A DNA stretch of 64,000 nucleotides from Candidatus Woesearchaeota archaeon. Its GTDB lineage: Archaea; Nanobdellota; Nanobdellia; Woesearchaeales; ARS49. Both the position numbers and the translations under genes were made by a program. The notes beneath the pieces are model-generated. The model searched no databases and had not been told where the DNA came from. It was given only the letters and a program-made list of their open reading frames with translations. The DNA is taken from assembly GCA_038891615.1 (NCBI GenBank), contig JAWADY010000002.1, forward strand, positions 64,994-128,993, in the 5' to 3' direction. Below, in pieces: positions 1 through 42,867 of this stretch (positions within the stretch are counted from its first letter, which is position 1; every line of letters starts with the position of its first letter).

Positions 1-2
1 CA

Positions 3-881
3 ATGTCAAAAAACGTCTTTGCGTTTAAGAAAGCACCGCCAGAATATCCCTACTCCCCATTCCCAAAACCGCCAATATTTCCTTCTGCACCAACATACGG
101 CTATTACGGTGATATAAGTATAGTGACTGAAAAAAGACTTTCTGCGGAGCTGAGCTCATACATAGAATCAAATATCCAAAGCTGCACTGATTGGTCAAGC
201 TTTGCACAGAAAGGGATTGATGTAAAAGTTGGTAAACCATCAGCGGATGTCCTTTTTGGAGACTCTGACACAACAGTCTCGCTTAGGTGGCGAATAGAGG
301 CAAAAAGCGGCCAGGCAGAAGCGGTCATAAACAAATTTGCAGCAAGCATTCCGGTTAGAATGAAGGTTGTACGTAACTATGCTCTCGAGATAGCCTCAAA
401 TGACACCCTTTACTATGACTATGAGCCTAGCAGTGCTCCAGCAGTCCAGGTTTTCAAAAGGGTTGATGGCAAAAGCGACATAATTCAAATCACAGATACG
501 CTTTCAAAAGTTGACACAAAACCGTTTATCTTCAGGTTTGCAAGAAAGAATAGGCCTCCTGTGCTTTTCGATTCTGATATTAAATTGCGATTTAATGAAA
601 TTTTTGCTTGCCCAGGCGATGTTATAAGTTTTGATGGCAAGACATTCAAAATAACTAAACAAAATGGTGACATTCGCTTTTCTTTTGCACCAAATGCAAC
701 AGATTTTGATGAAGATTCTAGTTTATCATTTAATGTTTCTGATAGAGGTGGTGAGCCCTTTCCTTTAAGCACAACTCAGCAAATGGCAAATATTGGTAAA
801 AGAGAACTAAGAATAGAAGTCAGTGATGGTCTTGAAAAAGATTGGTATGATGCAAGCCTGACTTTAAAAACAAAATGTTAA
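3..881 (+). CDS. hypothetical protein, probably 5'-truncated by the window edge; first visible gene of the giant-surface-protein operon
   Basis: The frame is open from nt 3 to TAA at 879-881. There is no hydrophobic N-terminus after the first Met, so the true start may lie upstream of the window. The stop overlaps the next start (ATGTTAA, 875-881). No family recognised. Confidence 0.5.
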   Translation: MSKNVFAFKKAPPEYPYSPFPKPPIFPSAPTYGYYGDISIVTEKRLSAELSSYIESNIQSCTDWSSFAQKGIDVKVGKPSADVLFGDSDTTVSLRWRIEAKSGQAEAVINKFAASIPVRMKVVRNYALEIASNDTLYYDYEPSSAPAVQVFKRVDGKSDIIQITDTLSKVDTKPFIFRFARKNRPPVLFDSDIKLRFNEIFACPGDVISFDGKTFKITKQNGDIRFSFAPNATDFDEDSSLSFNVSDRGGEPFPLSTTQQMANIGKRELRIEVSDGLEKDWYDASLTLKTKC

Positions 882-3800
882 GAAAAGAAGTTATTGGAAT
901 CTTTGTAGTGCTGTTCTTCGTAGTAATTGGAATCGCGGTCATTGCACAGGAAGAAAAAACAGGTTGTTGTTGTGATGAAAATGGAACTGCAATGGATTAC
1001 AGTCCTTTCCATACCCAAAATGAGTGCACTGATCCATTCACCATTCTTGTTCCACTTTCTTCAGAAAACATAAGCAAGTATACTCCTGACAACATCTCAA
1101 AAATATGTATAGACGCTTGTGGTGGTGCAGCCCCTAAGCCTTTACCATTGCCACTTGCTCCAAAAATAACTTTTTTTAAAGCAGAACCGTTGATGGGCCA
1201 AAAGAAATTTTTGCTCACCTGGGAGATAAATCAAACACCAAATGTCATCTATATAGACAGGTGCAAAGGAAATGACTGCACTAATTTTGGCAACATTGCA
1301 ACCTTTGCTGGAACCTCAAGGTCTTATGTCGATGATGATGCAAGCCTTGAGTGGCTAACAAATTACACCTACAGGTTGAGGATTGTCAATACAATTACAA
1401 GCCCACCACAAGAATCAAGCATGACAGCATCCTCAAGCCTTGGCGACATTGAGTGCTGGAATCGATTCGACAAAACTCCTTTCTGCATTTCAGAGTACTA
1501 CTATTGGAATGAGCCTATTCAGAGCTATCTCAAGAATTTTGGCTATTTTGGTTTCAGTTTCACTGATAATTTTGCAAGACAGGTGCGGACTGTTTTTGGA
1601 GTAACAAATCTTGACCACATAGGAAAGCTCGACTCAAGATGTCATGTGGTTGGCATAAACAGACTCAGTCAGTCTTCCTCAAGGTGCAAGAGCAACGAGA
1701 CTTGCCTTGTTGTGGATTCAAACACAATCTGCATAACCCCTTCACCTTGCGATACAAGCTTTAATGCAACCTCTGCTTCTTGTGAAAACACCCCTTCAGG
1801 TACTCCAAGCTATTGTTTCTCTGATAAGAGCCAAAGTGTTATTGAGCGCTGCTACAGTTGTGATAAAAGGATGAGCTGCTATGACTATCGTTCAAAAGAG
1901 GCCTGTGAGAGGGATGCATGCGGAATTGGAGATTGTATATGGAAGCCAACTTATGGAGCAATTGGAGTTGGAGTTTGCATCAATCCTTCTCAAAACAACT
2001 GTCTGCTTTGTGACAAGAAAACAGGAGACCTTCTTTCAGGCTTGGATTCAAAAAAATGGCCTAGTCTTTTGGCTTATAATGAGCTTTTTGACGCCTGCTC
2101 ACAGCTAAAGGCAGAAGCTCTTGGCAAATGCCTTGCCGTGACAGACCCTTCAACAGGAAAAACTTCTCCAAAGACTTGCGAACAAGCAACCTGCAGCGAT
2201 TATAAAACTCAGCAAGAATGTAATGCCGACACTTGTGGGTTGGGAATATGCAAATGGTTTGACTCACCCACCTTCCGCGGCTGTGCAAAGGATGCTGACA
2301 CCCCTCCTCAAGCCCCTGCAACAGATAGTGATGGTGATGGTATTCCTGATTGGTGGGAAATCAAGTATGGTTTGAATCCTAACAATCGTGATGATGCTGG
2401 TAGTGATTCTGATGGTGATGGCTTGAGCAATTTGGATGAATGGTTGCGTGGGACCCTTCCAAACAATCCTGATAGTGATGGTGATGGTGTCTCTGATCTT
2501 AATGATAATTGCCCTGGTACTCCTTCAAACACTTTTCAAGTTGATAGCAATGGGTGCCCTCTTCCTGTTAGTGATACCACTGATTCTGATGATGATGGTA
2601 TTCCTGATTGGTGGGAAAGAAAGTATGGTTTGAATCCTAACAATCCTGCTGATGCTGGTAGTGATTCTGATGGTGATGGCTTGAGCAATTTGGATGAATG
2701 GTTGCGTGGGACTCTTCCTAACAATCCTGATAGTGATGGTGATGGTGTTTCTGATCTTAATGATCAACATCCTGGTACTCCTTCAAACACTCAAGTTGAT
2801 AGCAATGGGCGCCCACCTCAAGGCAATGGCAAGCCGGATTGCATTGATCCAAACACAGGTGAAATAGATCCTGCGTGCGAAGCAGACAAGTGGTCACCTG
2901 AAACAGTCATTATCCCTGTGGGTGACAGAGGGGCTGTAAAATACCTATACATACAAATTACTGACCAGTTCAAAAGCACAGGTGAAAAATTAACTATTGC
3001 GCACTCTGGAACTGGAACAAAGGCAGAGTACTTTCCTAAAGGCTACAGCACTTTTCTTTGCGTTGGTAGCCTTTGCTCACCAAATGTTCGTGTGAACGCA
3101 ACTCCCTTGACTGTTGTAAATGGCTTCTTGACAATAAATGGTAAGCCTCTTGGACTGCAGCTTAAGGATGGTTCCAACATCTTAAGATTCTACTCACAAG
3201 ACCCTGCAAATAATAATGAACAAGTTAAGCAGCTAGAGGTGAATGCCTGCACAGGCTGTCAGGGACCTGCTCTCATTACTCCAATTGATATCGAAGGCGC
3301 AAGAATTGTAAATGGTGAGTATTATACAAAGCTAACACAGCCGCAAATAAAGCTATCCTTTGATGCAAAGGCAGAACTTGTTTTAAAGAGGCTTGTTTTT
3401 GGCAATTCTTTTACTGAGCTTAGCTCAAGCCCACAATCCGGCTTCAGCCAAAACTACACATTACTACCTCCTGAGCTAGCAGAAGCAAAGTATGTTCTGC
3501 AAATAAATGCTCGTGGAGAAAATGGAATCTCGAGCTCTAATACGCCTTACAGCTTCAATTTGACGATAGACAAAACCCCGCCACTCCTTTCATTCAATGT
3601 TGAACAAAACAGCATCTTAGAAAACCCAGACCAGTCTTTTGTGCTTAGCTTTAATGAGCCTGTCTTTGTTACTTCCATTTTTTTCGATGAAGAGCATGTT
3701 GCTCAAAATGGTCGCAAGTATGTTTTTACAAGAAATCTAACCTCTGAACTCAAGCAAGTGAATAGCAGCAAATATAACCTAACTGTTAATGGAATTCCTG

Positions 3801-6355
3801 ATGGGCATGTTGCGCTAAGAGTTACAGCAGAGGATTATGCCGGAAATACAATGGCTTCTGTGCTAAACTTTATTATTGACTCAACAGGCCCGGTCATTTC
3901 TCTGGCACAACCACTATTCGGAATTTCTGACAAGACACCATTTGACATTGTCGTTGAAACAGACCAGCCAGCTATCTGCAGATATTCAACAATTCAAAAT
4001 GTTGACACTGCGAGCATAAGCTATGATGCAATGGCAAAGTTCTACATACCTGAAAAACAAACCGCACAGCACATCATACAAGGCTTTGACGAGCTCACAG
4101 GAAAGCCAGAAAACACGCCCTGGAGGTTCTATGTTGTTTGCAAGGATGGCAAGCAACGCCAGTCTAACGAAACCTTCTGGCTGTCCGTTGATTCTGCTCC
4201 TCCAAAAATAACAGCTGCTTATGCAGAACCAAATCCAATCGTTGAGTACACAGACAGTGAGCTGCTAACAACACTGAAAGTCTCAACAGAACGCAGCTCC
4301 TTCTGCAGTTACAGCACAACAACCACGAGCTTTAGCCCTGAAAATGGTTTTGAAGGGACAGGCATAACTCCAAGGCAAGCGCACAATGCTGTGGTTAAAA
4401 TAACCACTTCTCCGACAACTTATAACATCGCTTGCATTTCACCAACCGATTATGGCAAAGCTGCGCCAAGAACAGCAACAGCAACAATAAAAATCACTGT
4501 TGACGTTGCAGCACCACTAACCATTTCCTGCAGCTATTGCCCTTCATTCTGGAATTCTACCACAAAAAACATATACCTGACCACAAACAAGCGCGCGCAA
4601 TGCTTCTGGACACTTGACAAGACAACCACTTCTTTTGGTACAGTTGGATATGAGCACAGCACCACTCTGAAAGTGCCATCTCTTGGCGAGAAAAAAGTGC
4701 TCTTTAGCTGCAATGCAGGCGCCCAAAGTGCAACCCTTGAGTATTCATTTCTTGTAGACAACAGCCCTCCTGTAATGCTCTATGTTAGTGATAACTCAAG
4801 CCTTAAAGAAGATACAGAGCATAGCTATTTCACAGATAGGTTAAGGGCAGCATGGCTCGGGCAGGATAATGAAAGTGGAATAACACGGTATTATTACTCT
4901 TTAATCGAAAAGGCAAACAACGCTGTTGTGATAAATTGTTCACCTGGCTCTCAACAAAACAATTGCCGATTCTCAACAGTACTTGATGGAAATTTCTTTG
5001 ACATTACGCAGGACCATAATGGAAAGTCGCTCAATTTAACAGACGGCTTTAGTTATTTCTTGAAGGTTTGGCCCCTAAATAGGGTTGGTCTTCTTGGAAA
5101 TCCAATGGACTCGGATGGAGTTGTAATAAACAAAAGCAAAAAGCCAGCTCACTGCAGCGATGGAATAACAAATGAAGGCGAATCAGGGCAGGACTGTGGT
5201 GGAGAGTGCGAGCCTTGTCCTGATGGTCAGCCTTGTAGGTCTGATTCGGACTGTCTCTCAAAAACCTGTATAGAAGGTTCGTGCAAGGCTCCGAGCTGTA
5301 CAGATTTAAGAAAGAATGGTAATGAAAGCTCAATCGATTGTGGTGGGAGCTGTCCAACAAAGTGCGAAGCTGGTAAAAGTTGTAACACTGACAGCGATTG
5401 CAAAACAGGACTAAGCTGTATATCTGGTGCATGCGCAGAACCAACAGCTTGCGAGAATGGTATACTTGATGGGCTTGAAACAGACATTGACTGCGGAAGG
5501 GTTTGTCCAACAAAATGCGCAGCTGGAAAGGGCTGTCTTGATAATAAAGATTGCGCTGATGGGCTATATTGTGTTAGTGGTGTTTGTTCTTCAACAACTC
5601 CAACCGCTGATTCTGATGGTGATGGTGTCACTAATGATCTTGACCAGTGCCCAAACACTCCGAAAGGTGAAAAAGTAGATAAAAACGGTTGTTCAGCAAG
5701 CCAGCGTGACACCGATGGAGATGGCATGAATGATGCTTGGGAGATACGCTATGGCTTTGATCCTGAGAATCCTGCTGATGCTTATACAGATGTCGATGCT
5801 GATGGCCTTAGTAATCTTGAGGAATTCAAGTTAGGAACTGATCCAAGAAACCCAGATACTGATGGTGATGGTTGGAGTGATGGGGCTGAGTTCAAGGCAG
5901 GAACAGACCCTCTAGACCCTGCCTCAAAGCCATCCGCCCCTATTGTGAGAGCTTTGCCATGGCTGTTGCTTGTTGCAATCCTTGCCATAGCCGGTTACGC
6001 AGCTTACAAGTACAGGAAGCAAATTGCTGCAATTTTTGTAAGGAAAAAGGTAATTCCTTTGCCAAAGCCGCCTGTGGTGTGGAGACCGCCACCAAGGCCT
6101 GTCCAAAGAGTTGTGCGTGTTCCAACAAGAGCAGAGTTAATCATTGAACAGCTTAGAAAGATTGCCCGAGCTACAAAGGCTGAAGAAGAGGAATACATTC
6201 CTGTAGAAGAGCTTGCCAGAAGGGCAGCTGCGCTAGAGCCAACAGAAGAAGTACTTAAGCATCTAAAGGCAGCAGTAAGAAAAAGCCCTGAGTTTGCAAG
6301 GGCTGCAGCTGCCCAGCCAAAGCTCAGAGCGATGCTCAAGAAAAAATCAAAATGA
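875..6355 (+). CDS. giant (1826 aa) Cys-rich, Ca-binding-repeat surface protein / putative adhesin with a C-terminal membrane anchor
   Basis: N-terminal hydrophobic signal/anchor (IGIFVVLFFVVIGIAVIA) and a Cys-rich N-terminal third. Three blocks of thrombospondin-type-3-like motifs (DSDGDGxxD, e.g. TDSDGDGIPDWWEIKYGLNPNN). The central part has recurring domain-boundary motifs (DKTPP, DSTGP, DSAPP, DNSPP) typical of tandem Ig-like domains. Three ~48-aa Cys-rich modules follow. A single TM (LPWLLLVAILAIAGYAAY, ~nt 5950-6010) is followed by a ~115-aa K/R/P/A/E-rich tail. Confidence 0.85.
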   Translation: MLRKEVIGIFVVLFFVVIGIAVIAQEEKTGCCCDENGTAMDYSPFHTQNECTDPFTILVPLSSENISKYTPDNISKICIDACGGAAPKPLPLPLAPKITFFKAEPLMGQKKFLLTWEINQTPNVIYIDRCKGNDCTNFGNIATFAGTSRSYVDDDASLEWLTNYTYRLRIVNTITSPPQESSMTASSSLGDIECWNRFDKTPFCISEYYYWNEPIQSYLKNFGYFGFSFTDNFARQVRTVFGVTNLDHIGKLDSRCHVVGINRLSQSSSRCKSNETCLVVDSNTICITPSPCDTSFNATSASCENTPSGTPSYCFSDKSQSVIERCYSCDKRMSCYDYRSKEACERDACGIGDCIWKPTYGAIGVGVCINPSQNNCLLCDKKTGDLLSGLDSKKWPSLLAYNELFDACSQLKAEALGKCLAVTDPSTGKTSPKTCEQATCSDYKTQQECNADTCGLGICKWFDSPTFRGCAKDADTPPQAPATDSDGDGIPDWWEIKYGLNPNNRDDAGSDSDGDGLSNLDEWLRGTLPNNPDSDGDGVSDLNDNCPGTPSNTFQVDSNGCPLPVSDTTDSDDDGIPDWWERKYGLNPNNPADAGSDSDGDGLSNLDEWLRGTLPNNPDSDGDGVSDLNDQHPGTPSNTQVDSNGRPPQGNGKPDCIDPNTGEIDPACEADKWSPETVIIPVGDRGAVKYLYIQITDQFKSTGEKLTIAHSGTGTKAEYFPKGYSTFLCVGSLCSPNVRVNATPLTVVNGFLTINGKPLGLQLKDGSNILRFYSQDPANNNEQVKQLEVNACTGCQGPALITPIDIEGARIVNGEYYTKLTQPQIKLSFDAKAELVLKRLVFGNSFTELSSSPQSGFSQNYTLLPPELAEAKYVLQINARGENGISSSNTPYSFNLTIDKTPPLLSFNVEQNSILENPDQSFVLSFNEPVFVTSIFFDEEHVAQNGRKYVFTRNLTSELKQVNSSKYNLTVNGIPDGHVALRVTAEDYAGNTMASVLNFIIDSTGPVISLAQPLFGISDKTPFDIVVETDQPAICRYSTIQNVDTASISYDAMAKFYIPEKQTAQHIIQGFDELTGKPENTPWRFYVVCKDGKQRQSNETFWLSVDSAPPKITAAYAEPNPIVEYTDSELLTTLKVSTERSSFCSYSTTTTSFSPENGFEGTGITPRQAHNAVVKITTSPTTYNIACISPTDYGKAAPRTATATIKITVDVAAPLTISCSYCPSFWNSTTKNIYLTTNKRAQCFWTLDKTTTSFGTVGYEHSTTLKVPSLGEKKVLFSCNAGAQSATLEYSFLVDNSPPVMLYVSDNSSLKEDTEHSYFTDRLRAAWLGQDNESGITRYYYSLIEKANNAVVINCSPGSQQNNCRFSTVLDGNFFDITQDHNGKSLNLTDGFSYFLKVWPLNRVGLLGNPMDSDGVVINKSKKPAHCSDGITNEGESGQDCGGECEPCPDGQPCRSDSDCLSKTCIEGSCKAPSCTDLRKNGNESSIDCGGSCPTKCEAGKSCNTDSDCKTGLSCISGACAEPTACENGILDGLETDIDCGRVCPTKCAAGKGCLDNKDCADGLYCVSGVCSSTTPTADSDGDGVTNDLDQCPNTPKGEKVDKNGCSASQRDTDGDGMNDAWEIRYGFDPENPADAYTDVDADGLSNLEEFKLGTDPRNPDTDGDGWSDGAEFKAGTDPLDPASKPSAPIVRALPWLLLVAILAIAGYAAYKYRKQIAAIFVRKKVIPLPKPPVVWRPPPRPVQRVVRVPTRAELIIEQLRKIARATKAEEEEYIPVEELARRAAALEPTEEVLKHLKAAVRKSPEFARAAAAQPKLRAMLKKKSK
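2321..2815 (+). repeat. in-frame tandem duplication (258-nt unit, 86 aa) encoding a triple DSDGDG Ca-binding module
   Basis: Copy 1 spans 2321-2578 (TDSDGDGIPDWWEIKYGLNPNNRDDAGSDSDGDGLSNLDEWLRGTLPNNPDSDGDGVSDLNDNCPGTPSNTFQVDSNGCP...). Copy 2 spans 2579-2815 (TDSDDDGIPDWWERKYGLNPNNPADAGSDSDGDGLSNLDEWLRGTLPNNPDSDGDGVSDLNDQHPGTPSNTQVDSNGRP). They are near-identical at the DNA level by eye, with a 3-nt deletion in copy 2. Confidence 0.9.
5153..5593 (+). repeat. three tandem ~48-51-aa Cys-rich modules within the giant protein
   Basis: The modules are CSDGITNEGESGQDCGGECEPCPDGQPCRSDSDCLSKTCIEGSC, CTDLRKNGNESSIDCGGSCPTKCEAGKSCNTDSDCKTGLSCISGAC and CENGILDGLETDIDCGRVCPTKCAAGKGCLDNKDCADGLYCVSGVC. The Cys spacing is conserved. 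Confidence 0.8.
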
Positions 6356-6852
6356 GACTTGGCCAAATAGTTGGGCAAATATTTCTTTTCTTGTTGGCAA
6401 CAATTGTTTTTGTTTTTATAGTTGTTTATGGCTATCGCGCAATAGGCAACCTTGTTGCAAAAGGTGAGCAAGCAGACCTAGTGCGATTCAACAGCGAGCT
6501 CAGTTCCGCAGTTAGTGCTATATCCCTTGACTATGGCAGCGTGCGTTGCCTAGAGCTCAGCCTTCCAAAAAGATATAGAACCTTTTGTTTTGTCGGGCAG
6601 GAGCCTGACATAGGCGCACTTTCCTTGGTCAGCCCATTAATTGCAAGTGCTGTCCAGTCAGGGATTAAGCAAAATGTTTTTTTAATCCCCCCTTCACCGC
6701 TTCAACTATATCTAGAAAAGGCAACGACAAAAGCAGAGGGAGGATTTTTTTGCATAAATACAAGCGGACCAACAAATCGCTTGCTACTCAGGCTTGAAGG
6801 TGGCGCAGGAGGAATTGCAGAGCTACAAAAATGGCAAGGAGCAAGCTGTTAA
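6352..6852 (+). CDS. prepilin-like protein (short basic leader plus hydrophobic helix)
   Basis: N-terminus is MRLGQ/IVGQIFLFLLATIVFVFIVVYGY. The start overlaps the giant-gene stop (ATGA at 6352-6355). Confidence 0.6.
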   Translation: MRLGQIVGQIFLFLLATIVFVFIVVYGYRAIGNLVAKGEQADLVRFNSELSSAVSAISLDYGSVRCLELSLPKRYRTFCFVGQEPDIGALSLVSPLIASAVQSGIKQNVFLIPPSPLQLYLEKATTKAEGGFFCINTSGPTNRLLLRLEGGAGGIAELQKWQGASC

Positions 6853-7820
6853 TTCCAAAGCACAGAAAAGGCCAGATAGAAGCGCCAGTAAGTTGGATAT
6901 TCATACTTATTGCAGGAGCTGTAATCCTTCTTTTTTTCTTTTCAACAACCATTAAGTTGCGTGACATTGCAAAACAAAAGCTTTCAATAACCCTTTTGTC
7001 AAACTTAGATGCACTCATCTCTAGCTCATCCGTTGCAAAAGGTACAAGCCAGCTGCTGCCGATTTATGACCAGCAACTTGTTTTTGAATGTACACAGGCT
7101 TGTCTTTGCGAGCTTTCAGTCCTTGGCGCAAAAAAGCCATTTAAAGACAGGCTGATTTTTGCTCAGCAAAAGGTTTTTGGAAGAAATGCGCTATTTTGGG
7201 CTCTTGACTGGAAGGAGCCATTCAGGATTGCTAATTTTCTTTACATAACAGACAGCTCAAGCAAATATTGGTTGGTTGGGGATTCGAGCAGCGAACCACT
7301 TAAGACAATAAAGTTCCTCCTTCCTAAGAATCTTAGTGCGGAGTTCGTAGACTCCACCCAAAACATCAAGCCAGGAAATTTCAAGAAAAGCAGGATTGTT
7401 CTTTTTGACAAAGCACTGGATGAAAGCCTTGCAGATAGTTTTCCCAAAGCATCTGAGCTAACATTACTTGTTGTCAACACCCAGAACAAAGAGCTTAAGT
7501 GGTACAAGAGAAAAGGTAGCAAGCTGGAAGTGCTGTCAAATGAAGGGGCGGATAACTACAAAAGCATTCCCCATCTTTTGGGAGCAATTTTTAGTGACGA
7601 GCCGCAGCTTTACGCCTGCCAACAAGCAGCTTCTGAGGACAGGAAAGCGGCCATAAAAGAAATCTATGTTGCACGTGTGCAAAAATTGATGCAAATTGTG
7701 CCAGAAGAACGTGGTTGCAGCGCGCTTTACGAAGAGACGTTCAAAAACATTAACGCTCCTGAGGCGCTTGAGGAGATTAATGAGGAATTGCTAAAAAAGA
7801 GTTGTCCAACAATATACTAA
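6831..7820 (+). CDS. prepilin-like protein, 329 aa
   Basis: N-terminus is MARSKLLIPKHRKGQ/IEAPVSWIFILIAGAVILLFFF (K-G-Q-I-E class III-type motif). It overlaps the upstream gene by 22 nt. Confidence 0.65.
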   Translation: MARSKLLIPKHRKGQIEAPVSWIFILIAGAVILLFFFSTTIKLRDIAKQKLSITLLSNLDALISSSSVAKGTSQLLPIYDQQLVFECTQACLCELSVLGAKKPFKDRLIFAQQKVFGRNALFWALDWKEPFRIANFLYITDSSSKYWLVGDSSSEPLKTIKFLLPKNLSAEFVDSTQNIKPGNFKKSRIVLFDKALDESLADSFPKASELTLLVVNTQNKELKWYKRKGSKLEVLSNEGADNYKSIPHLLGAIFSDEPQLYACQQAASEDRKAAIKEIYVARVQKLMQIVPEERGCSALYEETFKNINAPEALEEINEELLKKSCPTIY

Positions 7821-7821
7821 A

Positions 7822-8352
7822 ATGGCAAACAATGCATCTCCAAGCAAAAAGGCTCAGATAAAGATGTTTGAGAATATCGCTGTCCTCGTGATATTCTTTT
7901 TTCTTCTGGCTTTTGGTACAAGCTTTTACTTTACACTTCAAAAAAGTTCCCTTCAGCGTGAAATGGAACGCATTGCGCAGCTTGGAAACATTCAGCAGGC
8001 GCTTAGGCTTACATTCTTACCAGAGCTTGACTGCTCATTTGCTGCTGTACAAACTGAAAATTGTTTTGACAGGCTTAAGTTTGATGCTCTTGCAGATCAG
8101 CTTAAACCAGGTAGCCAGCGATGGCTTGAGTACTCTGCAATCCTTGGTTTTACTAGTATAAAACTAAAGACTGTTTATTCCAGCCTCTCTCCCCCGCCTG
8201 AAGAGAAACTTCTGTACGAAAGAAAGCTGAACGCAACTGCAATTCGCACAGAGATTCCTGTCTTGATTTGTGAAAACGGTTGCGACCCGCTAAATCAAAG
8301 CTATTCCTTCGGCATCCTTGAGGTGACAAGCTATGTTAGAAGGGCAACCTGA
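7822..8352 (+). CDS. prepilin-like protein, 176 aa
   Basis: N-terminus is MANNASPSKKAQ/IKMFENIAVLVIFFFLLAF. The start lies 1 nt after the upstream stop. Confidence 0.65.
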   Translation: MANNASPSKKAQIKMFENIAVLVIFFFLLAFGTSFYFTLQKSSLQREMERIAQLGNIQQALRLTFLPELDCSFAAVQTENCFDRLKFDALADQLKPGSQRWLEYSAILGFTSIKLKTVYSSLSPPPEEKLLYERKLNATAIRTEIPVLICENGCDPLNQSYSFGILEVTSYVRRAT

Positions 8353-8854
8353 TGGCATTGCTGTGTTGAAGGGATTAAAGAGAGCAAAAGGCGGGCAAAT
8401 GGAAATAATTGGTCTAACAATCATCATTCTTCTTGTTATAATTGGGGTGCTTTTTGGAATACAGTTTGTGCTCAAGGCAAAGCCGCCCACAATTGGACGA
8501 GAGTTTAGGGAATCGCAGTACGCAGCCAACTTCCTAAGCACTCTTACAGGTACAACAAGCGCATGTAATGGTTTGAGCATCACACAACTTTTACAGAACT
8601 GCGTGACAAGGACAGGGATTGACTGTCCATCAGGAAAGGGTGCTTGTGAGGAGGTTGAGGCTCTTATAGAAACAATCCTTGATAAAACAATTGGCAAGTC
8701 GGGACAAAACAGAGCATACCAACTTATGGTAAAAGGCAGCAACATTGACATTACTAAGTCTAATCGGGGAGGATGTCCGGGCGAAAAAGAGGTTGCAGAA
8801 CACACACTTCCAACAAGAGCTGGAGTAGTTTCTATACGCCTCGAGTTGTGCTAA
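8333..8854 (+). CDS. prepilin-like protein, 173 aa, Cys-containing
   Basis: N-terminus is ...LKRAKGGQ/MEIIGLTIIILLVIIGVLF. It overlaps the upstream gene by 20 nt and is the last gene of the operon. Confidence 0.6.
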   Translation: MLEGQPDGIAVLKGLKRAKGGQMEIIGLTIIILLVIIGVLFGIQFVLKAKPPTIGREFRESQYAANFLSTLTGTTSACNGLSITQLLQNCVTRTGIDCPSGKGACEEVEALIETILDKTIGKSGQNRAYQLMVKGSNIDITKSNRGGCPGEKEVAEHTLPTRAGVVSIRLELC

Positions 8855-8856
8855 AA

Positions 8857-10827: not shown

Positions 10828-10878
10828 CTCTTTTTTTTAAATTTATGCAAAAATTCTTTAAAAATTTTCCGAACAGCG

Positions 10879-12393: not shown

Positions 12394-12493
12394 TCCGCCC
12401 TGAAAGGAAGCAAATGCGTAGTGAATTGCTTGCTCAAACTCAACACACAACAAAGCTTACAAAGCAAACATTTTACGATTTTCAGTAGCAAGC

Positions 12494-12501
12494 TTTAAAT
12501 A
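12494..12501 (+). promoter_or_regulatory. TATA box (TTTAAATA) for the 14-gene prepilin-like operon
   Basis: TTTAAATA lies 43-50 nt upstream of the ATG at 12544. GAGGTG at 12533-12538 is a well-spaced SD site. Confidence 0.5.
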
Positions 12502-12543: not shown

Positions 12544-12798
12544 ATGTCAAAAGGTCAAGGCATTTCAATTAATGTTATCATAATAGCTGCGATTGCACTG
12601 CTTGTTCTTGTTGTTCTTTCTGTTATGTTCATAGGCAGGATAGGACTCTTTGGAGTTAAGAGTGTTTCTTGCACAGAACAGGGAGGAACATGTTCTGTTG
12701 ATGTCTGCCCAGCAGGGACAAGGGAGTACACACCTTGGAGGTGCCCTGATACTCCTGAGGGGGCAAAGCAGCGCTGCTGCGTGGCAATAGGGGTGTAA
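12544..12798 (+). CDS. small 6-Cys prepilin-like protein (84 aa), candidate major pilin, paralog 1
   Basis: Sequence is MSKGQG/ISINVIIIAAIALLVLVVLSVMFIGRIGLFG followed by a 6-Cys globular tail ending ...QRCCVAIGV. Confidence 0.75.
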   Translation: MSKGQGISINVIIIAAIALLVLVVLSVMFIGRIGLFGVKSVSCTEQGGTCSVDVCPAGTREYTPWRCPDTPEGAKQRCCVAIGV

Positions 12799-12809
12799 GT
12801 GAATTTTCA

Positions 12810-13079
12810 ATGGCAAAAGCGCAAGGGCTGCCAATAAACACAATCATTATCGTTGCGCTAGCACTTGTTGTTCTTTTAGTCATTGCAGCCATTTTTACTG
12901 GTCGTATACAGCTTTTTGGAAGAGCGCTAAGCAACTGCCCAAAAGGAGAGGGGAAGTGGTGCACAGACAACCCTTCGGATTGCGCAGCTGGCAACGCAGC
13001 AGCAAGTCCGCTAAAAAATTGCAACGAAGATGCTGACCCTGAACCAGAAGGGAGCTATTGTTGCATACCATTGGCATGA
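12810..13079 (+). CDS. small 6-Cys prepilin-like protein (89 aa), paralog 2
   Basis: Sequence is MAKAQG/LPINTIIIVALALVVLLVIAAIFTGRIQLFG with a 6-Cys tail ending ...GSYCCIPLA. Confidence 0.75.
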   Translation: MAKAQGLPINTIIIVALALVVLLVIAAIFTGRIQLFGRALSNCPKGEGKWCTDNPSDCAAGNAAASPLKNCNEDADPEPEGSYCCIPLA

Positions 13080-13366
13080 GAATGGGCAAAATGAGCGGAA
13101 AAAAGGGTGCTGAAGCCATTTGGTACATAATCGCGCTTGTCATTGGGCTAATAGTTCTTGTTGTGCTGGTAGCATTATTTACAGGAAAGGTAAAGCTGTT
13201 TGGCAAGGCAGGAGAAGAAATCGAAAAAGGTGTTCGTGGAAATCTTTGTTTTGAGCAGGGTTTTTGTGAAGCGGGCACTGCTTGTCCTCCTGGTTCAACA
13301 GCAATCCCGCGCCCTGCTGCTGGCTGGACAGATTGCACAGGGATTTGTTGCAAGCAAGTTGGATAA
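13076..13366 (+). CDS. small 6-Cys prepilin-like protein (~96 aa), paralog 3
   Basis: Sequence is MRMGKMSGKKG/AEAIWYIIALVIGLIVLVVLVALFTGKVKLFG with a 6-Cys tail ending ...CTGICCKQVG. The start is chosen at the ATGA overlap (13076). The track start 13058 and the ATGs at 13082 and 13091 are alternatives. Confidence 0.7.
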   Translation: MRMGKMSGKKGAEAIWYIIALVIGLIVLVVLVALFTGKVKLFGKAGEEIEKGVRGNLCFEQGFCEAGTACPPGSTAIPRPAAGWTDCTGICCKQVG

Positions 13367-13398: not shown

Positions 13399-13512
13399 AT
13401 GCACAAAAGAGGCGTTGAAAAAAGCACTTTGTTATACCTCATCCTAATCCTTATCTTTCTTGCGCTTGCAGCCTATATTCTTGTGAGAATTGCTGGGAGG
13501 ATTTTTGGATGA
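13399..13512 (+). CDS. 37-aa mini prepilin-like ORF (not in the supplied track)
   Basis: My translation is MHKRG/VEKSTLLYLILILIFLALAAYILVRIAGRIFG*. The stop overlaps the next start (ATGA at 13509-13512), and the orientation and operon are the same. Confidence 0.5.
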   Translation: MHKRGVEKSTLLYLILILIFLALAAYILVRIAGRIFG

Positions 13513-14225
13513 GCCTGCTCATTGTCAGAAGGAAGGGAATAACAGAAACAGGATTAGTGGCAATAATCCTTGTCCTTGCCTCTGGCATTGTTCTTGGAGC
13601 TCTTGTCTATCAGTTTACTGTTAAGGGGAAGCAGGTTGGCTCTATCGAGCTTTGCAGACAGAATGTGCTAACTGCTAGCAAAGTTGTAGCGCTTGGCAAA
13701 GCAGATATTTGGCCAATCACCAACTGCTTTACAGAAGACCTTGGCAAACTTCCAGAAAAAGAAGAAGAAGCCATTACTCTGATTGCCGAGGGTATTAGGA
13801 AGTGCTGGTACATGTGGGGCGAAGGAAAGCTAACTCCATGGAGCTCTACATGGCTATCAAGAAACATCATGTGTCATGTTTGTACGATGTTTGAGCCAAG
13901 CGCAGAAGTGAGTATTGAAAAGCTTCATGGTTGGATGAGGACTCACAACATTCCTGGCAAAGAATTAACCTACTATGACTTTTTGAAAGAAGGCTACATC
14001 CCTTTCATCTATCCAGCACTTGAAGAAGAAGCCAAAGCCAAAAAAGTTGACCTCACAAAAGGAATGAAATGGGCTGTCTTTTATGCCTATGGAACGCGCG
14101 CGGATTGGCTAAGATTTCCCCTCATTGGTGGACTTGTGCTTGAAGAACCAAAACAAGGCGTTGCCTTCCTGCCGACAAATGAACTCGGAGGCATATGTAC
14201 ATATACTACGATAAAACTCAAATGA
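13509..14225 (+). CDS. prepilin-like protein, 238 aa (CW..GEG..C.VC family, paralog a)
   Basis: N-terminus is MSLLIVRRKG/ITETGLVAIILVLASGIVLGALVY. The motif ...IRKCWYMWGEGKLTPW...MCHVCTMF is shared with the next gene. Confidence 0.7.
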   Translation: MSLLIVRRKGITETGLVAIILVLASGIVLGALVYQFTVKGKQVGSIELCRQNVLTASKVVALGKADIWPITNCFTEDLGKLPEKEEEAITLIAEGIRKCWYMWGEGKLTPWSSTWLSRNIMCHVCTMFEPSAEVSIEKLHGWMRTHNIPGKELTYYDFLKEGYIPFIYPALEEEAKAKKVDLTKGMKWAVFYAYGTRADWLRFPLIGGLVLEEPKQGVAFLPTNELGGICTYTTIKLK

Positions 14226-15145
14226 AAAGGGCGCAAGTAACAACACAGACACTCTTGGTAGTGCTCGTGCTTTTACTCGTAGCAGCTGTCATCTTTATTT
14301 CTTTTCAGACAAGACTCTTTGGCTTAGCAGAAGCCAAAAGTGCAAAGGATGTTTGCAAAACTTCTGTCTATGCCAATGCGCTGCTTGGAAGAAGTGTTGG
14401 AATCTTTTCTTCGGATATAAAATGTCCAACTCAGTATCTTCAGATAGACAATAGTGATGTTGCACATGCAAAGTTTGAGATTGCAAAAGCTCTGTCAGAT
14501 TGTTGGGAACAATTTGGAGAAGGCAGGCTTGAGCTTTTTTCTGGAGAAGGTGTTTTTTGTTCCGTATGTCATTTGATAACTTTTAAGCACAAAGAAAAAG
14601 CAATAAGCGGGCTTTTAGACTATCTTGCAACTAACAAAAAACCCCTTACTGACAAAAGCTATCTTGATTATCTAACAAGCTATCACACTTCAGGAAGCGA
14701 GGTTCTTAAGGCATATGCAGCTGAAAAGCTCCCGCCTGACATTCTTGACCCATCGCGAGGCAACACCTATGCAACAATCTTCTACTATGTCAAGGGTAAA
14801 GACCATGTGAAGGATGTTATTGAAAGAGCCCAAGCAGCAGCACCTGGCATTGGGCTTGAAGCACTTGGTATCGGATTGATAAAGGCAGGCAGTGCAACAG
14901 CTGGCTTGATTTCAGCAACCGGCATTGGTGCGCCTCTAGGTGTAGTTGTTGCAAAGGTCTCAACAATTGTCGGCGGAGTTTTGATTGTTGGCGGAGCAGG
15001 CTATGCCCTCCTCGCTGGTTGGTTCGGCGGAGTCCCTGTAGAATTCCTCTCACAAGTACGCCTCGAGCCTTACAACGAGCAAACGCTTAAAAACCTCGGA
15101 TGCCAAATCCTGCCTGCAGCTGAAAAAGCAGAGGTTGGAAGGTGA
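14222..15145 (+). CDS. prepilin-like protein, ~307 aa (paralog b) with a Gly-rich hydrophobic C-terminal region
   Basis: The start is taken at the ATGA overlap (14222): MKRAQ/VTTQTLLVVLVLLLVAAVIFISF. It carries the motif ...LSDCWEQFGEGRLELF...FCSVCHLITF. The C-terminal segment is GIGLEALGIGLIKAGSATAGLISATGIGAPLGVVVAKVSTIVGGVLIVGGAGYALLAGWFGG. Confidence 0.7.
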   Translation: MKRAQVTTQTLLVVLVLLLVAAVIFISFQTRLFGLAEAKSAKDVCKTSVYANALLGRSVGIFSSDIKCPTQYLQIDNSDVAHAKFEIAKALSDCWEQFGEGRLELFSGEGVFCSVCHLITFKHKEKAISGLLDYLATNKKPLTDKSYLDYLTSYHTSGSEVLKAYAAEKLPPDILDPSRGNTYATIFYYVKGKDHVKDVIERAQAAAPGIGLEALGIGLIKAGSATAGLISATGIGAPLGVVVAKVSTIVGGVLIVGGAGYALLAGWFGGVPVEFLSQVRLEPYNEQTLKNLGCQILPAAEKAEVGR

Positions 15146-15279
15146 TGAAAAAAGGCATATCCCGCGAGGCATTTGTTTACATACTCTTGGCACTTATTGC
15201 AATCCTCATTGGAGTAATCTTGATAATTTTTTGGGGAGGCGGGGCAGAAAAGGTCCTTAAGTCTCTTGGTTTGGGATAG
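15145..15279 (+). CDS. 44-aa mini prepilin-like ORF (not in the supplied track)
   Basis: My translation is MKKG/ISREAFVYILLALIAILIGVILIIFWGGGAEKVLKSLGLG*. The start overlaps the upstream stop by 1 nt (TGATG). Confidence 0.5.
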   Translation: MKKGISREAFVYILLALIAILIGVILIIFWGGGAEKVLKSLGLG

Positions 15280-15284
15280 CTCAA

Positions 15285-15641
15285 ATGGACAAAAAAGCTG
15301 TTGCAATAGAAACAATAGTCATCCTTCTCCTTGCACTTGTTGCTCTCCTTTTCTTTACAGTCCTTGGAGGAAAGCAGCTTCAATTGGGCAAGAAAATAAG
15401 CTTTTTCATGCCGGGCTGCCCAAAGGGTGTTTTAATAACCACAGAATGTCCATGTGATGGCCAAAAGATAAGTTCAGGTTATTGCTGTGATTTTGGACCA
15501 AGCCAAAAGCCTTGCTTTTGCGTAGAGCGAAATGTTAATAAGTGCGAGGATTACAAAAAGCAAGAGGATTGTGTAAGCAATCCTTGCCAAGTTCAAACTG
15601 CTTGCACCTTTGAACAAGGTGTTTGCAAAAGGGCTGGTTAA
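15285..15641 (+). CDS. Cys-rich prepilin-like protein, 118 aa (12 Cys)
   Basis: N-terminus is MDKKA/VAIETIVILLLALVALLFFTVLGG. The tail is CPKGVLITTECPCDGQKISSGYCCDFG... Confidence 0.7.
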   Translation: MDKKAVAIETIVILLLALVALLFFTVLGGKQLQLGKKISFFMPGCPKGVLITTECPCDGQKISSGYCCDFGPSQKPCFCVERNVNKCEDYKKQEDCVSNPCQVQTACTFEQGVCKRAG

Positions 15642-15645
15642 ATAA

Positions 15646-16071
15646 ATGGCAAAAAAAGGGGTAAGTGGAATACAGGTCGTCATAGCACTTTTGATTGGCA
15701 TCATAGTGCTCTATGTTGTTGTGGCTTTTATGCAAGCACAGTTCAAGAAGGCTGGAAAGAGTATCGAGGAAATAACTCCTTCCACAATCAGCTTTGCGCT
15801 GCAAGGCTGCAGGCTCCAAGCCGCACGAGGTTTTTCTGATGCAGATAAGGATGGATATCCCGACTTTTGTGATGTCTGCGAAGGCGGTGATGACGGAAAG
15901 CACAGCGATGCTGACTGGGTTCCAGATGATTGTGATGCGCATGAAAAAACAAAAGGGCTTCCTGCAAAGGAATGTGGTTGTGAAAAGCCAGAAATGGATT
16001 CTGAAGGCAGGCTGATAAAGAGCTGTGGGAGGCTTCTTTCAATCGAGCCATTTAAGTGCGCGAAAAAATGA
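15646..16071 (+). CDS. prepilin-like protein, 141 aa, with an acidic D-rich/Cys segment
   Basis: N-terminus is MAKKG/VSGIQVVIALLIGIIVLYVVVAF. The segment DADKDGYPDFCDVCEGGDDGKHSDADWVPDDCD looks like a Ca-binding site. Confidence 0.7.
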   Translation: MAKKGVSGIQVVIALLIGIIVLYVVVAFMQAQFKKAGKSIEEITPSTISFALQGCRLQAARGFSDADKDGYPDFCDVCEGGDDGKHSDADWVPDDCDAHEKTKGLPAKECGCEKPEMDSEGRLIKSCGRLLSIEPFKCAKK

Positions 16072-16088
16072 ATTTGGTAAAATGAAAA

Positions 16089-18900: not shown

Positions 18901-18901
18901 A

Positions 18902-40454: not shown

Positions 40455-40482
40455 TAGTCCACCTCTTTTTGCAATTTAGCCC

Positions 40483-42753: not shown

Positions 42754-42867
42754 GTGAAGTCCTCCCACCTCTTTGAGCAAAGGTTTTTAGCACTTTGACA
42801 TGGTTACACAATTTATTATCCTGCTAAGCAAAACCTTATTAAAGCAAATTTATAAGCTTTTGCAAAA

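What the first reader, a model, noticed from the sequence alone, without database searches (positions are those of the whole stretch)
1..8854. An 1826-aa Ca-binding, Cys-rich surface protein is translationally coupled to four prepilin-like genes
Seen in sequence: six same-strand ORFs are chained by overlaps or near-zero gaps (ATGTTAA at 875-881, ATGA at 6352-6355, 22-nt overlap, 1-nt gap, 20-nt overlap). The second ORF encodes 1826 aa with an N-terminal signal/anchor, three thrombospondin-type-3-like DSDGDG blocks, Ig-like-looking repeats, Cys-rich modules and a C-terminal TM. The four downstream proteins each start with a short basic leader, a G/A-Q motif and a ~20-aa hydrophobic helix (RKGQIEAPVSWIFILIAG..., KKAQIKMFENIAVLVIFFF..., KGGQMEIIGLTIIILL...). 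Established knowledge: such N-termini define archaeal class III signal peptides of type IV pilin-like proteins, and TSP3 repeats bind Ca2+ in adhesins. Inference: this is an adhesin plus minor-pilin module, possibly a cell-cell or host-attachment device. That architecture is not one I can match to characterised archaeal pilus loci (Aap, Ups, Epd, Bas, archaellum).
Basis: partly seen in the sequence, partly recalled or inferred. Interest (0 to 1): 0.75.

Follow-up and report, generated by a model that had tools for sequence, protein, structure and literature searches.

The report
Conserved Woesearchaeota pilin-plus-giant-protein operon
This is a real operon, conserved across uncultivated Woesearchaeota archaea, that encodes five pilin-like proteins around a giant membrane-anchored surface protein; it is a good but unproven candidate for the organism's attachment apparatus, and a new variant of a known kind of archaeal pilus locus.

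Summary
The window comes from a Candidatus Woesearchaeota MAG (GCA_038896715.1). The six ORFs are real genes and part of a seven-gene unit, U-A-G-B-C-D-E. U is a Sec-secreted Cys-rich protein. A is a 395-aa pilin-like protein cut by the window edge. G is the 1826-aa giant. B-E are the four small proteins.

The gene order and near-zero spacing recur in dozens of species-level genomes. At least 208 genomes carry family C, which has about 2,200 clusters at 50% identity. Families A-E keep a [KR]-[GAS]-Q site directly before a hydrophobic helix, which is the class III signal pattern. The AF2 model of C has a 47-residue N-terminal helix followed by a beta-sheet. No HMM library or solved fold matches these proteins.

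G always has a Sec signal, an invariant GCCC motif, FN3/Ig-like domains and three Cys-rich modules. It ends in a TSP3 block, one transmembrane helix and a 106-271-aa basic cytoplasmic tail, so it is cell-anchored. Two of its three TSP3 blocks are a lineage-specific duplication.

Short candidate major pilins, about ten more pilin-like genes and a TadA/FlaI-type ATPase with a candidate platform protein lie in the same window.

Best reading: a minor-pilin set plus a surface adhesin or envelope protein of a type IV filament system. Processing, assembly and binding are untested. Comparative surveys have already described similar architectures in other archaea.

The parts
1..881 (+). 3' part of gene A. 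The full gene is 395 aa and starts 306 nt before the window. It encodes a pilin-like protein with a class-III-like N-terminus (KISKKGQ|LTVAIILGLGILIVVAFLIYVV).
   Evidence: L001 8820-10007. Orthologs sit immediately upstream of the giant gene in 30 loci. [KR]-[GAS] in 25/33 orthologs and Q next in 24/33. Two conserved Cys.
875..6355 (+). Gene G, the 1826-aa giant type I membrane protein. In order: Sec signal, invariant GCCC motif, FN3 domain (~98-188), Cys-rich head (190-475), lineage-specific TSP3 insert (480-645), Ig/FN3-like stalk (650-1420), three 8-Cys modules (1427-1571), conserved TSP3 block (1579-1670), TM helix (~1687-1709), and a 118-aa basic cytoplasmic tail.
2321..2791 (+). Tandem 258-nt duplication inside G that encodes the two central TSP3 blocks. 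It is absent from all 11 aligned orthologs.
   Evidence: 213-nt copies, 92% identical; occupancy 0.00-0.02 over residues 501-650.
6352..6852 (+). Gene B, 166 aa, pilin-like (MRLGQ|IVGQIFLFLLATIVFVFIVVYGY). Its start overlaps the stop of G (ATGA).
   Evidence: Family consensus K-[AG]-Q in 51/58 orthologs. Two invariant Cys.
6831..7820 (+). Gene C, 329 aa, the largest of the four downstream pilin-like proteins (HRKGQ|IEAPVSWIFILIAGAVILLFFF). The model shows an N-terminal 47-residue helix, a beta-sheet, an alpha/beta subdomain and a helical C-terminal part.
   Evidence: [KR]-[GA] in 77/82 orthologs. Four invariant Cys.
7822..8352 (+). Gene D, 176 aa, pilin-like (SKKAQ|IKMFENIAVLVIFFFLLAFG).
8333..8854 (+). 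Gene E, 173 aa, pilin-like (RAKGGQ|MEIIGLTIIILLVIIGVLFG). It is the last gene of the unit. A convergent kinase gene ends 2 nt downstream.
   Evidence: [KR]-[SGA]-Q in 69-71/75 orthologs. Six conserved Cys.
12544..13366 (+). Three tandem short pilin-like genes of 84, 89 and 91 aa (12544-12798, 12810-13079, 13091-13366). They are candidate major pilins.
   Evidence: This family lies downstream of E in 56 loci and directly adjacent in about 25.
13509..19870 (+). About ten further genes with class-III-like N-termini. This second pilin-like block ends at the RPA gene.
   Evidence: Pfam found no family in the nine proteins of this block that were scanned. The same block lies next to the operon in L007.
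38265..42780 (-). Candidate assembly machinery: a 765-aa TadA/FlaI-type secretion ATPase with a long N-terminal extension (40483-42780) and an adjacent 729-aa polytopic membrane protein, the putative platform (38265-40454).
   Evidence: T2SSE on both the precomputed and the direct Pfam scan. NCBIfam TadA 1e-31 and FlaI 7e-31. PDB 2OAP at 5.5e-24, CpaF and FlaI. The membrane protein has no family hit, so calling it the platform is an inference.

Best explanation
The region is the core of a lineage-specific type IV filament (TFF, type IV pilus-like) surface locus of Woesearchaeota/Nanoarchaeia.

Genes A, B, C, D and E encode pilin-like proteins. A short basic leader would be cut after [KR]-[GAS] by a class III signal peptidase. 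That would expose a Q-initiated hydrophobic helix that first sits in the membrane and then packs into a filament core.

The five genes are a fixed set in a fixed order and are tightly packed with each other. They are therefore most likely a minor-pilin set that forms a defined complex. That complex would prime or cap a filament built from the short pilins encoded just downstream, powered by the TadA/FlaI-type ATPase and the putative platform protein elsewhere in the genome.

The giant protein G and the upstream Cys-rich protein U are exported by Sec. G stays anchored in the cell's own membrane by its C-terminal helix and projects a disulfide-rich FN3/Ig stalk of about 1,650 residues. Its basic tail reaches into the cytoplasm. 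G is made in fixed proportion with the pilin-like set and probably works next to it, either as the cell-surface contact (adhesin) component or as an envelope component of the same apparatus.

Shown: gene structure, conservation, the N-terminal motif, domain content, topology signals and the presence of an ATPase.

Inferred: cleavage, filament assembly, complex formation with G, Ca2+ binding, and any role in host or surface attachment.
For: 1. Real, conserved genes. Orthologs of G, B, C, D and E are found in L003, L005 and L007 at 23-62% identity. HMM mapping over 82 loci gives U-A-G-B-C-D-E in 23 of the 49 loci with at least 7 kb of upstream sequence, and G-B-C-D-E or subsets in most of the others.
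2. Conserved tight packing. The median distance from the upstream stop codon to the first codon of the next gene's hydrophobic helix is 3.5-29 nt at all six junctions.
3. Conserved class III-type site. The last K/R before the helix is followed by G/A/S in A 25/33, B 51/58, C 77/82, E 71/75 and D 59/80 orthologs. Q follows in 24/33, 45/58, 69/75 and 55/80 for A, B, E and D. Q at +1 is the pattern of Pfam Class_IIIsignal (recalled from memory).
4. Clustering. A FlaFind-like scan of all 228 ORFs in the window put 12 of 15 hits inside 6831-19870 on the + strand.
5. Structure. The AF2 model of C has pLDDT 91.4, with helix 22-68 followed by an eight-strand beta region.
6. Extracytoplasmic domains. 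Every family has an even number of conserved Cys: 2, 2, 4, 2, 6, 12 and 66.
7. Machinery. A TadA/FlaI-type ATPase and an adjacent 729-aa polytopic membrane protein are in the window.
8. Candidate major pilins lie downstream of E in 56 loci and are directly adjacent in about 25.
9. G's topology is conserved. A C-terminal TM helix plus a 106-271-aa tail with 28-51% charged residues was found in 57 of 64 loci. Ig-like (SiiE BIg, 1.8e-6) and FN3 domains are present, and the C-terminal TSP3 block is conserved.
10. Precedent. Archaeal T4P loci with five or more minor pilins plus adhesin-like or S-layer-like large proteins are known (PMC4858521; preprint).
Against: - No pilin, class III signal or TadE/G HMM reaches significance for any of A-E or the short pilins. 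The best is Tad at E=0.14 on A's N-terminus.
- No prepilin peptidase was seen. Precomputed Pfam calls for the window region from ~19.2 to ~61.4 kb and for L001, which adds 10 kb upstream and reaches window position ~16.4 kb, list none. A GxGDxK motif scan of the window and all loci also found none.
- The ATPase is 30 kb away, and no ATPase or platform lies within 10 kb of the operon in any of the other loci.
- G's C-terminal anchor and cytoplasmic tail do not fit a pilus-tip adhesin of the PilY1 type.
- There are no expression, processing or imaging data.
Confidence: 0.55

Rival explanations
1. G is mainly a cell-envelope (S-layer-like) protein, not an adhesin. The co-encoded pilin-like proteins would build a short membrane-rooted pseudopilus or collar. 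That structure would organise or penetrate the layer, for example by opening the envelope for the filament or anchoring G arrays.
For: - G has the classic archaeal S-layer-type layout: Sec signal, a long Ig/FN3 ectodomain, and a C-terminal TM helix.
- Conservation is spread along the ectodomain rather than low at the membrane-distal N-terminus. The most conserved 50-residue bin (301-350, 49% identity) lies in the N-terminal Cys-rich region, and the GCCC motif and many cysteines there are invariant. That is unusual for a host-binding tip.
- Makarova et al. describe S-layer-like proteins with a C-terminal TM helix and conserved cysteines inside T4P loci. The 2026 preprint suggests such proteins prime the cell wall for filament passage.
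Against: - Tight, conserved spacing with five low-copy-type pilin-like genes is unexpected for a very abundant lattice protein.
- A 106-271-aa conserved cytoplasmic tail is not, to my knowledge, a usual S-layer feature.
- Size and domain content vary widely between orthologs, from 1014 to 2828 aa for complete copies and from 20 to 200 Cys.
- No homology to a known S-layer protein was found.
Confidence: 0.2
2. A-E are not processed pilins. They would be ordinary bitopic (N-in, C-out) membrane proteins that form a membrane complex with G and U, independent of any TFF machinery. On this reading the N-terminal motif is a topology or anchoring signal only.
For: - No pilin HMM or pilin fold match.
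- The ATPase, platform and peptidase are not linked to the operon in any locus.
- The window's own B lacks K/R at -2.
- C has a large, non-pilin-like alpha/beta plus helical C-terminal part.
Against: - A plain signal anchor needs no small residue followed by Q between the basic residues and the helix. Yet [KR]-[GAS]-Q is kept in five separate families across dozens of species.
- The same motif is seen in the adjacent short 84-120-aa proteins, which look like typical pilins.
- A TFF ATPase is present in the genome.
Confidence: 0.12
3. The pilin-like set forms a type II secretion-like pseudopilus. Its job would be to push Sec-exported cargo such as U, or shed forms of G, through the envelope rather than to build an adhesive filament.
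For: - A fixed set of four or five pilin-like proteins, one of them large (C, 329 aa), resembles in number and size the GspH-I-J-K set (my own knowledge).
- A Sec-secreted Cys-rich protein U is co-encoded.
Against: - To my knowledge no T2SS-like secretion has been shown in archaea, and there is no outer membrane or secretin to cross.
- Short candidate major pilins in several tandem copies fit a filament better.
- G is membrane-anchored.
Confidence: 0.05

Closest known systems
Epd pilus locus of Methanococcus maripaludis / archaeal TFF 'system 1' (Makarova et al. 2016 clade 1)
   Same: One co-transcribed cluster combines several class III signal (minor pilin-like) proteins with large adhesin-like proteins. 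The major pilins can be encoded separately (PMC4858521; preprint).
   Different: - No detectable sequence relationship by Pfam or NCBIfam.
- The Epd cluster carries its own ATPase, two platform genes and a dedicated peptidase. Here none of these is in the operon, and the window holds a single candidate platform gene.
- The Epd large proteins carry the PilY-type DUF2341 domain. G does not, and G has a C-terminal TM helix plus a cytoplasmic tail.
Archaeal TFF 'system 2' (for example Haloferax and Archaeoglobus Pil loci)
   Same: The ATPase has an extended N-terminal region: here it is 765 aa and its T2SSE core starts at ~370. There is a single platform gene, multiple pilin-like proteins and, often, large adhesin-like proteins. 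The best PDB match of the ATPase is Archaeoglobus fulgidus GspE2, 2OAP.
   Different: - System 2 is described mainly in Euryarchaeota, and Woesearchaeota are not discussed.
- The pilin genes here are unlinked to the ATPase.
- No ATPase phylogeny was made, so the assignment is untested.
Thermoproteales T4P loci (subclades 4B/4G) with an S-layer-like protein (arCOG05471 type) and Cys-rich minor pilins
   Same: A large protein with a single C-terminal TM helix and conserved cysteines is encoded among several small predicted minor pilins. Nearly all components are cysteine-rich.
   Different: - A different phylum.
- Homology could not be tested because no arCOG profiles were available.
- G has a long conserved cytoplasmic tail and TSP3 and FN3 content that are not reported for those proteins.
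Bacterial type IVa pilus minor pilins plus PilY1 (fimU-pilVWXY1E), and T2SS GspH-I-J-K
   Same: A fixed set of four or five minor pilins is encoded together with a large Ca2+-binding non-pilin surface protein. The set primes assembly and presents the adhesin (my own knowledge; Nguyen et al. 2015, as cited). One member of the set is much larger than the others (GspK/PilX compared with C).
   Different: - No sequence or fold similarity.
- PilY1 has a beta-propeller and vWA domain and no membrane anchor. G has neither domain and is membrane-anchored.
- Archaea lack the secretin and outer membrane.
Giant Ca2+-binding repeat adhesins and TSP3 surface proteins (Salmonella SiiE; Myxococcus MtsD and CglD)
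   Same: BIg-type and FN3 beta-sandwich repeats (2yn3 at 1.8e-6) and TSP3 DxDxDG repeats.
   Different: - The matches cover repeat units only, and NCBIfam scores are far below the family cut-offs for MtsD and CglD.
- Those proteins are bacterial and are not type I membrane proteins with cytoplasmic tails.
- Most of the TSP3 content here is lineage-specific.

Membership tests
Archaeal type IV pilin-like proteins (class III signal peptide substrates) | A short, positively charged leader ending in [KR]-[G/A/S], followed immediately by a hydrophobic helix of about 20 residues | tested here: met
   Seen in A, C, D and E of the window. B fits only at family level. The site is conserved in 25/33 to 77/82 orthologs per family, with Q next in most. 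A custom FlaFind-like scan clusters 12 of 15 hits in 6831-19870.
Archaeal type IV pilin-like proteins (class III signal peptide substrates) | Recognition by curated pilin or class III signal models (Pfam Class_IIIsignal, Pilin_N, TadE/G; NCBIfam archaeal models) | tested here: not met
   No family at E<=0.01 for any of A-E or the short pilins. The best is Tad at E=0.14 on A's N-terminus and BasB at E=0.032 on D.
Archaeal type IV pilin-like proteins (class III signal peptide substrates) | Pilin architecture: a long N-terminal alpha-helix packed against a beta-sheet domain | tested here: inconclusive
Archaeal type IV pilin-like proteins (class III signal peptide substrates) | Cleavage by a class III signal peptidase (PibD/FlaK/EppA) encoded in the genome | tested here: inconclusive
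   No Peptidase_A24-type gene in the precomputed Pfam calls for window ~19.2-61.4 kb or for L001, which spans 10 kb upstream to window ~16.4 kb. No GxGDxK polytopic ORF in the window or in any fetched locus. The rest of the 344-kb contig and of the MAG was not examined. Cleavage itself cannot be tested with these tools.
Type IV filament (TFF) system | A secretion ATPase of the TadA/FlaI/PilB family plus a polytopic platform protein | tested here: met
   ATPase at 40483-42780(-): T2SSE 1.5e-12, NCBIfam TadA 1e-31 and FlaI 7e-31, PDB 2OAP 5.5e-24. The adjacent 729-aa multi-TM protein has no T2SSF hit, so its platform role is inferred. Both are 30 kb from the operon and are not linked to it in other genomes.
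Bacterial PilY1/PilC-type pilus tip adhesin | A C-terminal beta-propeller with a Ca-binding site (Pfam Neisseria_PilC / DUF2341-type domains), soluble with no membrane anchor | tested here: not met
   Pfam and NCBIfam scans of G list no PilY1/PilC or DUF2341-type family. G has a conserved C-terminal TM helix and cytoplasmic tail.
Thrombospondin type 3 (TSP3) Ca2+-binding repeat proteins | DxDxDGxxDxxD repeats recognised by PF18884/PF02412 | tested here: met
   TSP3_bac at 8.1e-21 (74 bits, cut-off 25) in three stretches, and ten DxDxDG motifs. Only the C-terminal block is conserved in orthologs. Ca2+ binding itself was not tested.
Amuc_1099 family pilus-like system protein (NCBIfam NF042425) | A full-length match to the 321-position equivalog model | tested here: not met
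   The whole-protein score of 59.6 bits exceeds the cut-off of 50. However, it is the sum of four short stretches, and the best covers only profile positions 106-152, which is the TSP3 repeat part. This is repeat sharing, not family membership.
Archaeal S-layer-like proteins associated with T4P loci (arCOG05471 type) | Sec signal, large ectodomain with conserved cysteines, single C-terminal TM helix | tested here: met
   The architecture is met in G and 57 of 64 orthologs. Sequence homology to arCOG05471 could not be tested because no arCOG profiles were available.
Epd (system 1) / system 2 archaeal TFF classes | ATPase clade membership by phylogeny and characteristic arCOG pilin families | not tested
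   Only descriptive traits are available. The single candidate platform gene and the N-terminally extended ATPase resemble system 2. No tree or arCOG assignment was made.

The most novel reading that the evidence does not exclude
The operon encodes a Woesearchaeota/Nanoarchaeia-specific cell-contact organelle that is not simply a pilus. A five-member pilin-derived pseudopilus would be physically coupled to a giant transmembrane protein, whose conserved basic cytoplasmic tail links the outside contact to the cell interior. The embedded receptor-type kinase module found in about 22 of 74 loci could be one route for that link. This would be a new functional class of type IV filament machinery, used by these ultrasmall archaea to dock onto and exploit host cells.
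Probability: 0.15. Interest if true: 0.85.

Novelty: new variant of a known kind. Interest (0 to 1): 0.58.

Why it matters
Woesearchaeota and their relatives are among the most widespread uncultivated archaea. They are thought to live attached to hosts, but the molecules they use for attachment are unknown.

Makarova et al. (2016) could find TFF ATPases in nanoarchaea but not the cognate pilins. Castelle et al. (2021) found a 51-family module shared by Woesearchaeota and Pacearchaeota, most of it without known function.

This locus gives a concrete, testable candidate. It is a seven-gene unit, with an adjacent pilin block, present in at least 208 species-level genomes. One of its families alone has about 2,200 clusters at 50% identity and no entry in Pfam or NCBIfam.

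It provides targets for metaproteomics, antibodies, cryo-ET and structure prediction. It could also seed new family models for annotating thousands of 'hypothetical' DPANN proteins.

Tried and rejected
- **HMM libraries.** Pfam and NCBIfam scans of all pilin-like proteins, full length and N-terminal peptides alone, gave nothing significant.
- **Homolog search with E.** It returned only E itself, because of the word-index limit.
- **AF2 of the giant's N-terminal head (residues 25-480).** Only 12 sequences were available. The model reached pLDDT 69.8, and only the FN3 domain is reliable, so the Cys-rich head remains unassigned.
- **Giant-family profile against PDB sequences.** Only SiiE BIg and titin FN3 were found.
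- **Prepilin peptidase and linked machinery.** A search for a GxGDxK polytopic ORF, and for an ATPase or platform near the operon in the other loci, found none.
- **Tandem Repeats Finder.** It missed the TSP3 duplication, which repeat finder then detected.
- **Intermolecular disulfide idea.** I considered a disulfide between the invariant GCCC of G and the pilin-like proteins. Every family has an even number of conserved Cys, so there is no support for it.
- **Mobile element or virus origin.** Rejected. GC content is uniform and synteny with core genes is conserved: RNase P p30 upstream, RPA and RadA downstream.
- **Literature.** Searches found no paper that describes this locus.

Full report
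**1. Observation**

The six + strand ORFs exist exactly as described (translations). Their junctions are also as described: ATGTTAA at 875-881, ATGA at 6352-6355, a 22-nt overlap, a 1-nt gap and a 20-nt overlap. The giant ORF (875-6355, 1826 aa) has an N-terminal hydrophobic signal and one further TM-like segment at ~1687-1709. It has ten DxDxDG motifs in three blocks and 78 cysteines. Pfam finds TSP3_bac (8e-21), Big_13 and TSP_3 in it, and nothing in the other five proteins.

**2. Source and true extent**

An exact-match look-up places the window on contig JAWACO010000001.1 (344 kb) of GCA_038896715.1. NCBI names the proteins 'Candidatus Woesearchaeota archaeon'.

The DNA upstream (L001) shows that ORF 3-881 is the 3' part of a 395-aa gene. 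Its product starts MVGIKISKKGQLTVAIILGLGIL, so it is a fifth pilin-like protein. A 340-aa Sec-signal, Cys-rich protein (U) is encoded 1 nt upstream of it. I call the unit U-A-G-B-C-D-E.

The unit ends at 8854, where a convergent Ser/Thr kinase gene stops 2 nt away.

**3. Conservation**

- Family C (ORF4) has 52 word-indexed homologs, and every source name given is Woesearchaeota or Nanoarchaeota.
- A profile of family C finds 2,187 clusters at 50% identity with E<=1e-3 among 1.84 billion representatives.
- A scan of one genome per GTDB species found 208 genomes that encode a relative.
- In L003, L005 and L007, orthologs of G, B, C, D and E lie in the same order at 23-62% identity.
- HMMs built from these four loci and run over 82 loci recover U-A-G-B-C-D-E in 23 of the 49 loci with at least 7 kb upstream. 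Most of the rest show G-B-C-D-E or subsets.
- The distance from each upstream stop codon to the first codon of the next gene's hydrophobic helix has medians of 3.5-29 nt at all six junctions. The leaders must therefore abut or overlap the preceding gene in most genomes. This supports co-transcription and probably coupled translation, but it does not prove either.

**4. Are A-E pilin-like?**

Evidence for:
- In each family the last K/R before the helix is followed by G, A or S: A 25/33, B 51/58, C 77/82, E 71/75 and D 59/80. Q usually comes next. This is the [KR]-[GAS]|Q class III layout. A plain membrane anchor would not need it.
- A crude FlaFind-like scan of all 228 ORFs of at least 60 aa in the window gives 15 hits, and 12 of them lie in 6831-19870 on the + strand.
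- The AF2 model of C is confident (pLDDT 91.4, pTM 0.84). It shows a 47-residue N-terminal helix followed by an eight-strand beta region, then an alpha/beta subdomain and a helical C-terminal part.
- All families carry an even number of conserved cysteines. This fits disulfide-bonded extracytoplasmic domains.

Evidence against membership in known families:
- No curated pilin or class III model matches.
- No prepilin peptidase gene was seen in the stretches for which precomputed Pfam calls were available, nor by a motif scan of the window and all loci.
- The window's own B begins MRLGQ and lacks K/R at -2.

**5. The giant protein**

Eleven true orthologs of 1392-2487 aa, all from the same lineage, align over the whole length. 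All other database hits are TSP3-repeat matches to unrelated bacterial proteins.

Conserved features:
- a Sec signal and an invariant GCCC motif a few residues into the mature protein;
- an FN3 domain (confident in AF2, with Foldseek FN3 hits);
- a Cys-rich head whose fold was not resolved;
- an Ig/FN3-like stalk (SiiE BIg at 1.8e-6, titin FN3);
- three 8-Cys modules and a C-terminal TSP3 block;
- one TM helix and a basic cytoplasmic tail of 106-271 aa, seen in 57 of 64 loci.

Residues 480-645, which hold the two central TSP3 blocks, are absent from every ortholog. They arose by a 258-nt tandem duplication whose copies are still 92% identical. Heavy Ca-binding content is therefore not a defining trait.

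The conserved type I topology means that G stays anchored in the producing cell's membrane.

**6. Surroundings**

- Three tandem genes for short pilin-like proteins of 84-91 aa lie at 12544-13366 (KGQG|LPINTIIIAALALIVLVVL type). This family lies downstream of E in 56 loci and directly after E in about 25. I take them as candidate major pilins.
- About ten more genes with class-III-like N-termini follow, up to 19870.
- In the window and about 32 other loci, a regulatory insert separates E from the short pilins. It holds a kinase-fold protein (Pkinase on the - strand in 4 loci, an APH-like ~610-aa protein in 18), an AbrB-PhoU protein and an Lrp/AsnC regulator.
- A 765-aa TadA/FlaI-type ATPase and an adjacent 729-aa polytopic membrane protein lie at 38265-42780 on the - strand.
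- No such machinery lies within 10 kb of the operon in any other locus.

**7. Mechanism**

Most likely (0.55), A-E are substrates of a class III signal peptidase and form a defined minor-pilin complex. That complex would prime or cap a filament of the short pilins, assembled by the ATPase and platform. G, and perhaps U, would be made in proportion and act beside the complex as the contact (adhesin) or envelope component. Every step beyond gene content, motifs and topology is inference.

Rivals:
- G is an S-layer-like envelope protein and the pilin-like set is a short collar or pseudopilus (0.20).
- A-E are unprocessed bitopic membrane partners of G (0.12).
- The set is a secretion-type pseudopilus (0.05).

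**8. Comparison with known systems**

Makarova et al. (PMC4858521) modelled archaeal T4P loci with at least five minor pilins plus PilY-like adhesins (Methanococcus). They also modelled loci with a large S-layer-like protein that has a C-terminal TM helix and conserved cysteines (Thermoproteales). They noted that nanoarchaeal pilins could not be identified.

Sivabalasarma and Albers (bioRxiv 10.64898/2026.04.22.720090) report large adhesin-like proteins in several TFF classes. They describe 'system 2' as having N-terminally extended ATPases and a single platform gene, as is seen here.

The kind of system is therefore known. What is new:
- the lineage;
- families unrecognised by any library;
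- the fixed seven-gene organisation;
- the long conserved cytoplasmic tail of the giant protein;
- separation from the assembly genes.

Castelle et al. (PMC8204110) reported a module of 51 protein families widespread in Woesearchaeota and Pacearchaeota, most without known function. They do not mention pili. These families may belong to that module, but I did not test this.

**9. Verdict**

This is a new variant of a known kind, with interest 0.58. The main gaps are proof of processing, the location of the peptidase, any expression data, and what G binds or builds.

Noticed in passing
window 12544-19870 (+): A second block of about 13 genes with class-III-like N-termini. It includes three tandem short (84-91 aa) candidate major pilins at 12544-13366, and it ends at the RPA gene. 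The same block follows the operon in other genomes.
   Followed up: partly
window 38265-42780 (-): A TadA/FlaI-type secretion ATPase (765 aa, with a long N-terminal extension) next to a 729-aa polytopic membrane protein that has no family hit. These are the probable TFF motor and platform. They lie 30 kb from the operon and are not linked to it in other genomes.
   Followed up: partly
window 8857-12393: A regulatory insert sits between gene E and the short pilins. It contains a receptor-like Ser/Thr kinase (8857-10827, - strand; TM at ~278-298 and a ~350-aa C-terminal part outside the cell), an AbrB/MazE-PhoU protein (10879-11763, - strand) and an Lrp/AsnC regulator (11902-12393). AbrB-PhoU and AsnC recur in 30 of 74 loci. 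The kinase-fold slot is filled by an APH-like ~610-aa protein in 18 loci and by a Pkinase in 4.
   Followed up: partly
L001 3375-7735 (upstream of the window): Two surface proteins (510 aa, lipoprotein-like with Ig repeats; 734 aa) share a 75%-identical 290-aa Cys-rich C-terminal domain. They flank a 143-aa pilin-like gene (L001 5094-5525) that resembles window 15646-16071. Both small proteins carry an Asp- and Cys-rich stretch (DADVDDVPD / DADKDGYPD) that resembles a TSP3 motif.
   Followed up: partly
window 2321-2791: A recent 258-nt tandem duplication (92% identical) inside the giant gene created the two central TSP3 blocks. The insert is absent from all 11 orthologs. Tandem Repeats Finder missed it.
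   Followed up: yes
window 56876-56959 (+): Rfam finds a tRNA here (57.7 bits) that ARAGORN does not report. It is 84 nt long, so it may contain an intron.
   Followed up: no
window 53344-56806 (+): Six consecutive small genes without a Pfam family: three apparently related polytopic membrane proteins of similar size, followed by three soluble proteins.
   Followed up: no
window 50075-52739 (-): Two adjacent class II aminoacyl-tRNA synthetase genes (435 and 436 aa), both with the tRNA_anti-codon and tRNA-synt_2 domains.
   Followed up: no
loci L010, L012, L014 and about 30 others: Many GTDB representative records titled 'uncultured Methanosarcinales archaeon' (and one titled 'Thermoplasmatota') carry this Woesearchaeota-type operon. 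The record titles probably reflect placeholder or wrong taxonomy.
   Followed up: no
window 875-6355, residues 30-33 of the giant protein: An invariant G-C-C-C motif lies a few residues after the predicted signal cleavage site in all 12 aligned giant proteins. Its role is unknown. Cysteine parity in the partner families gives no sign of an intermolecular disulfide.
   Followed up: partly
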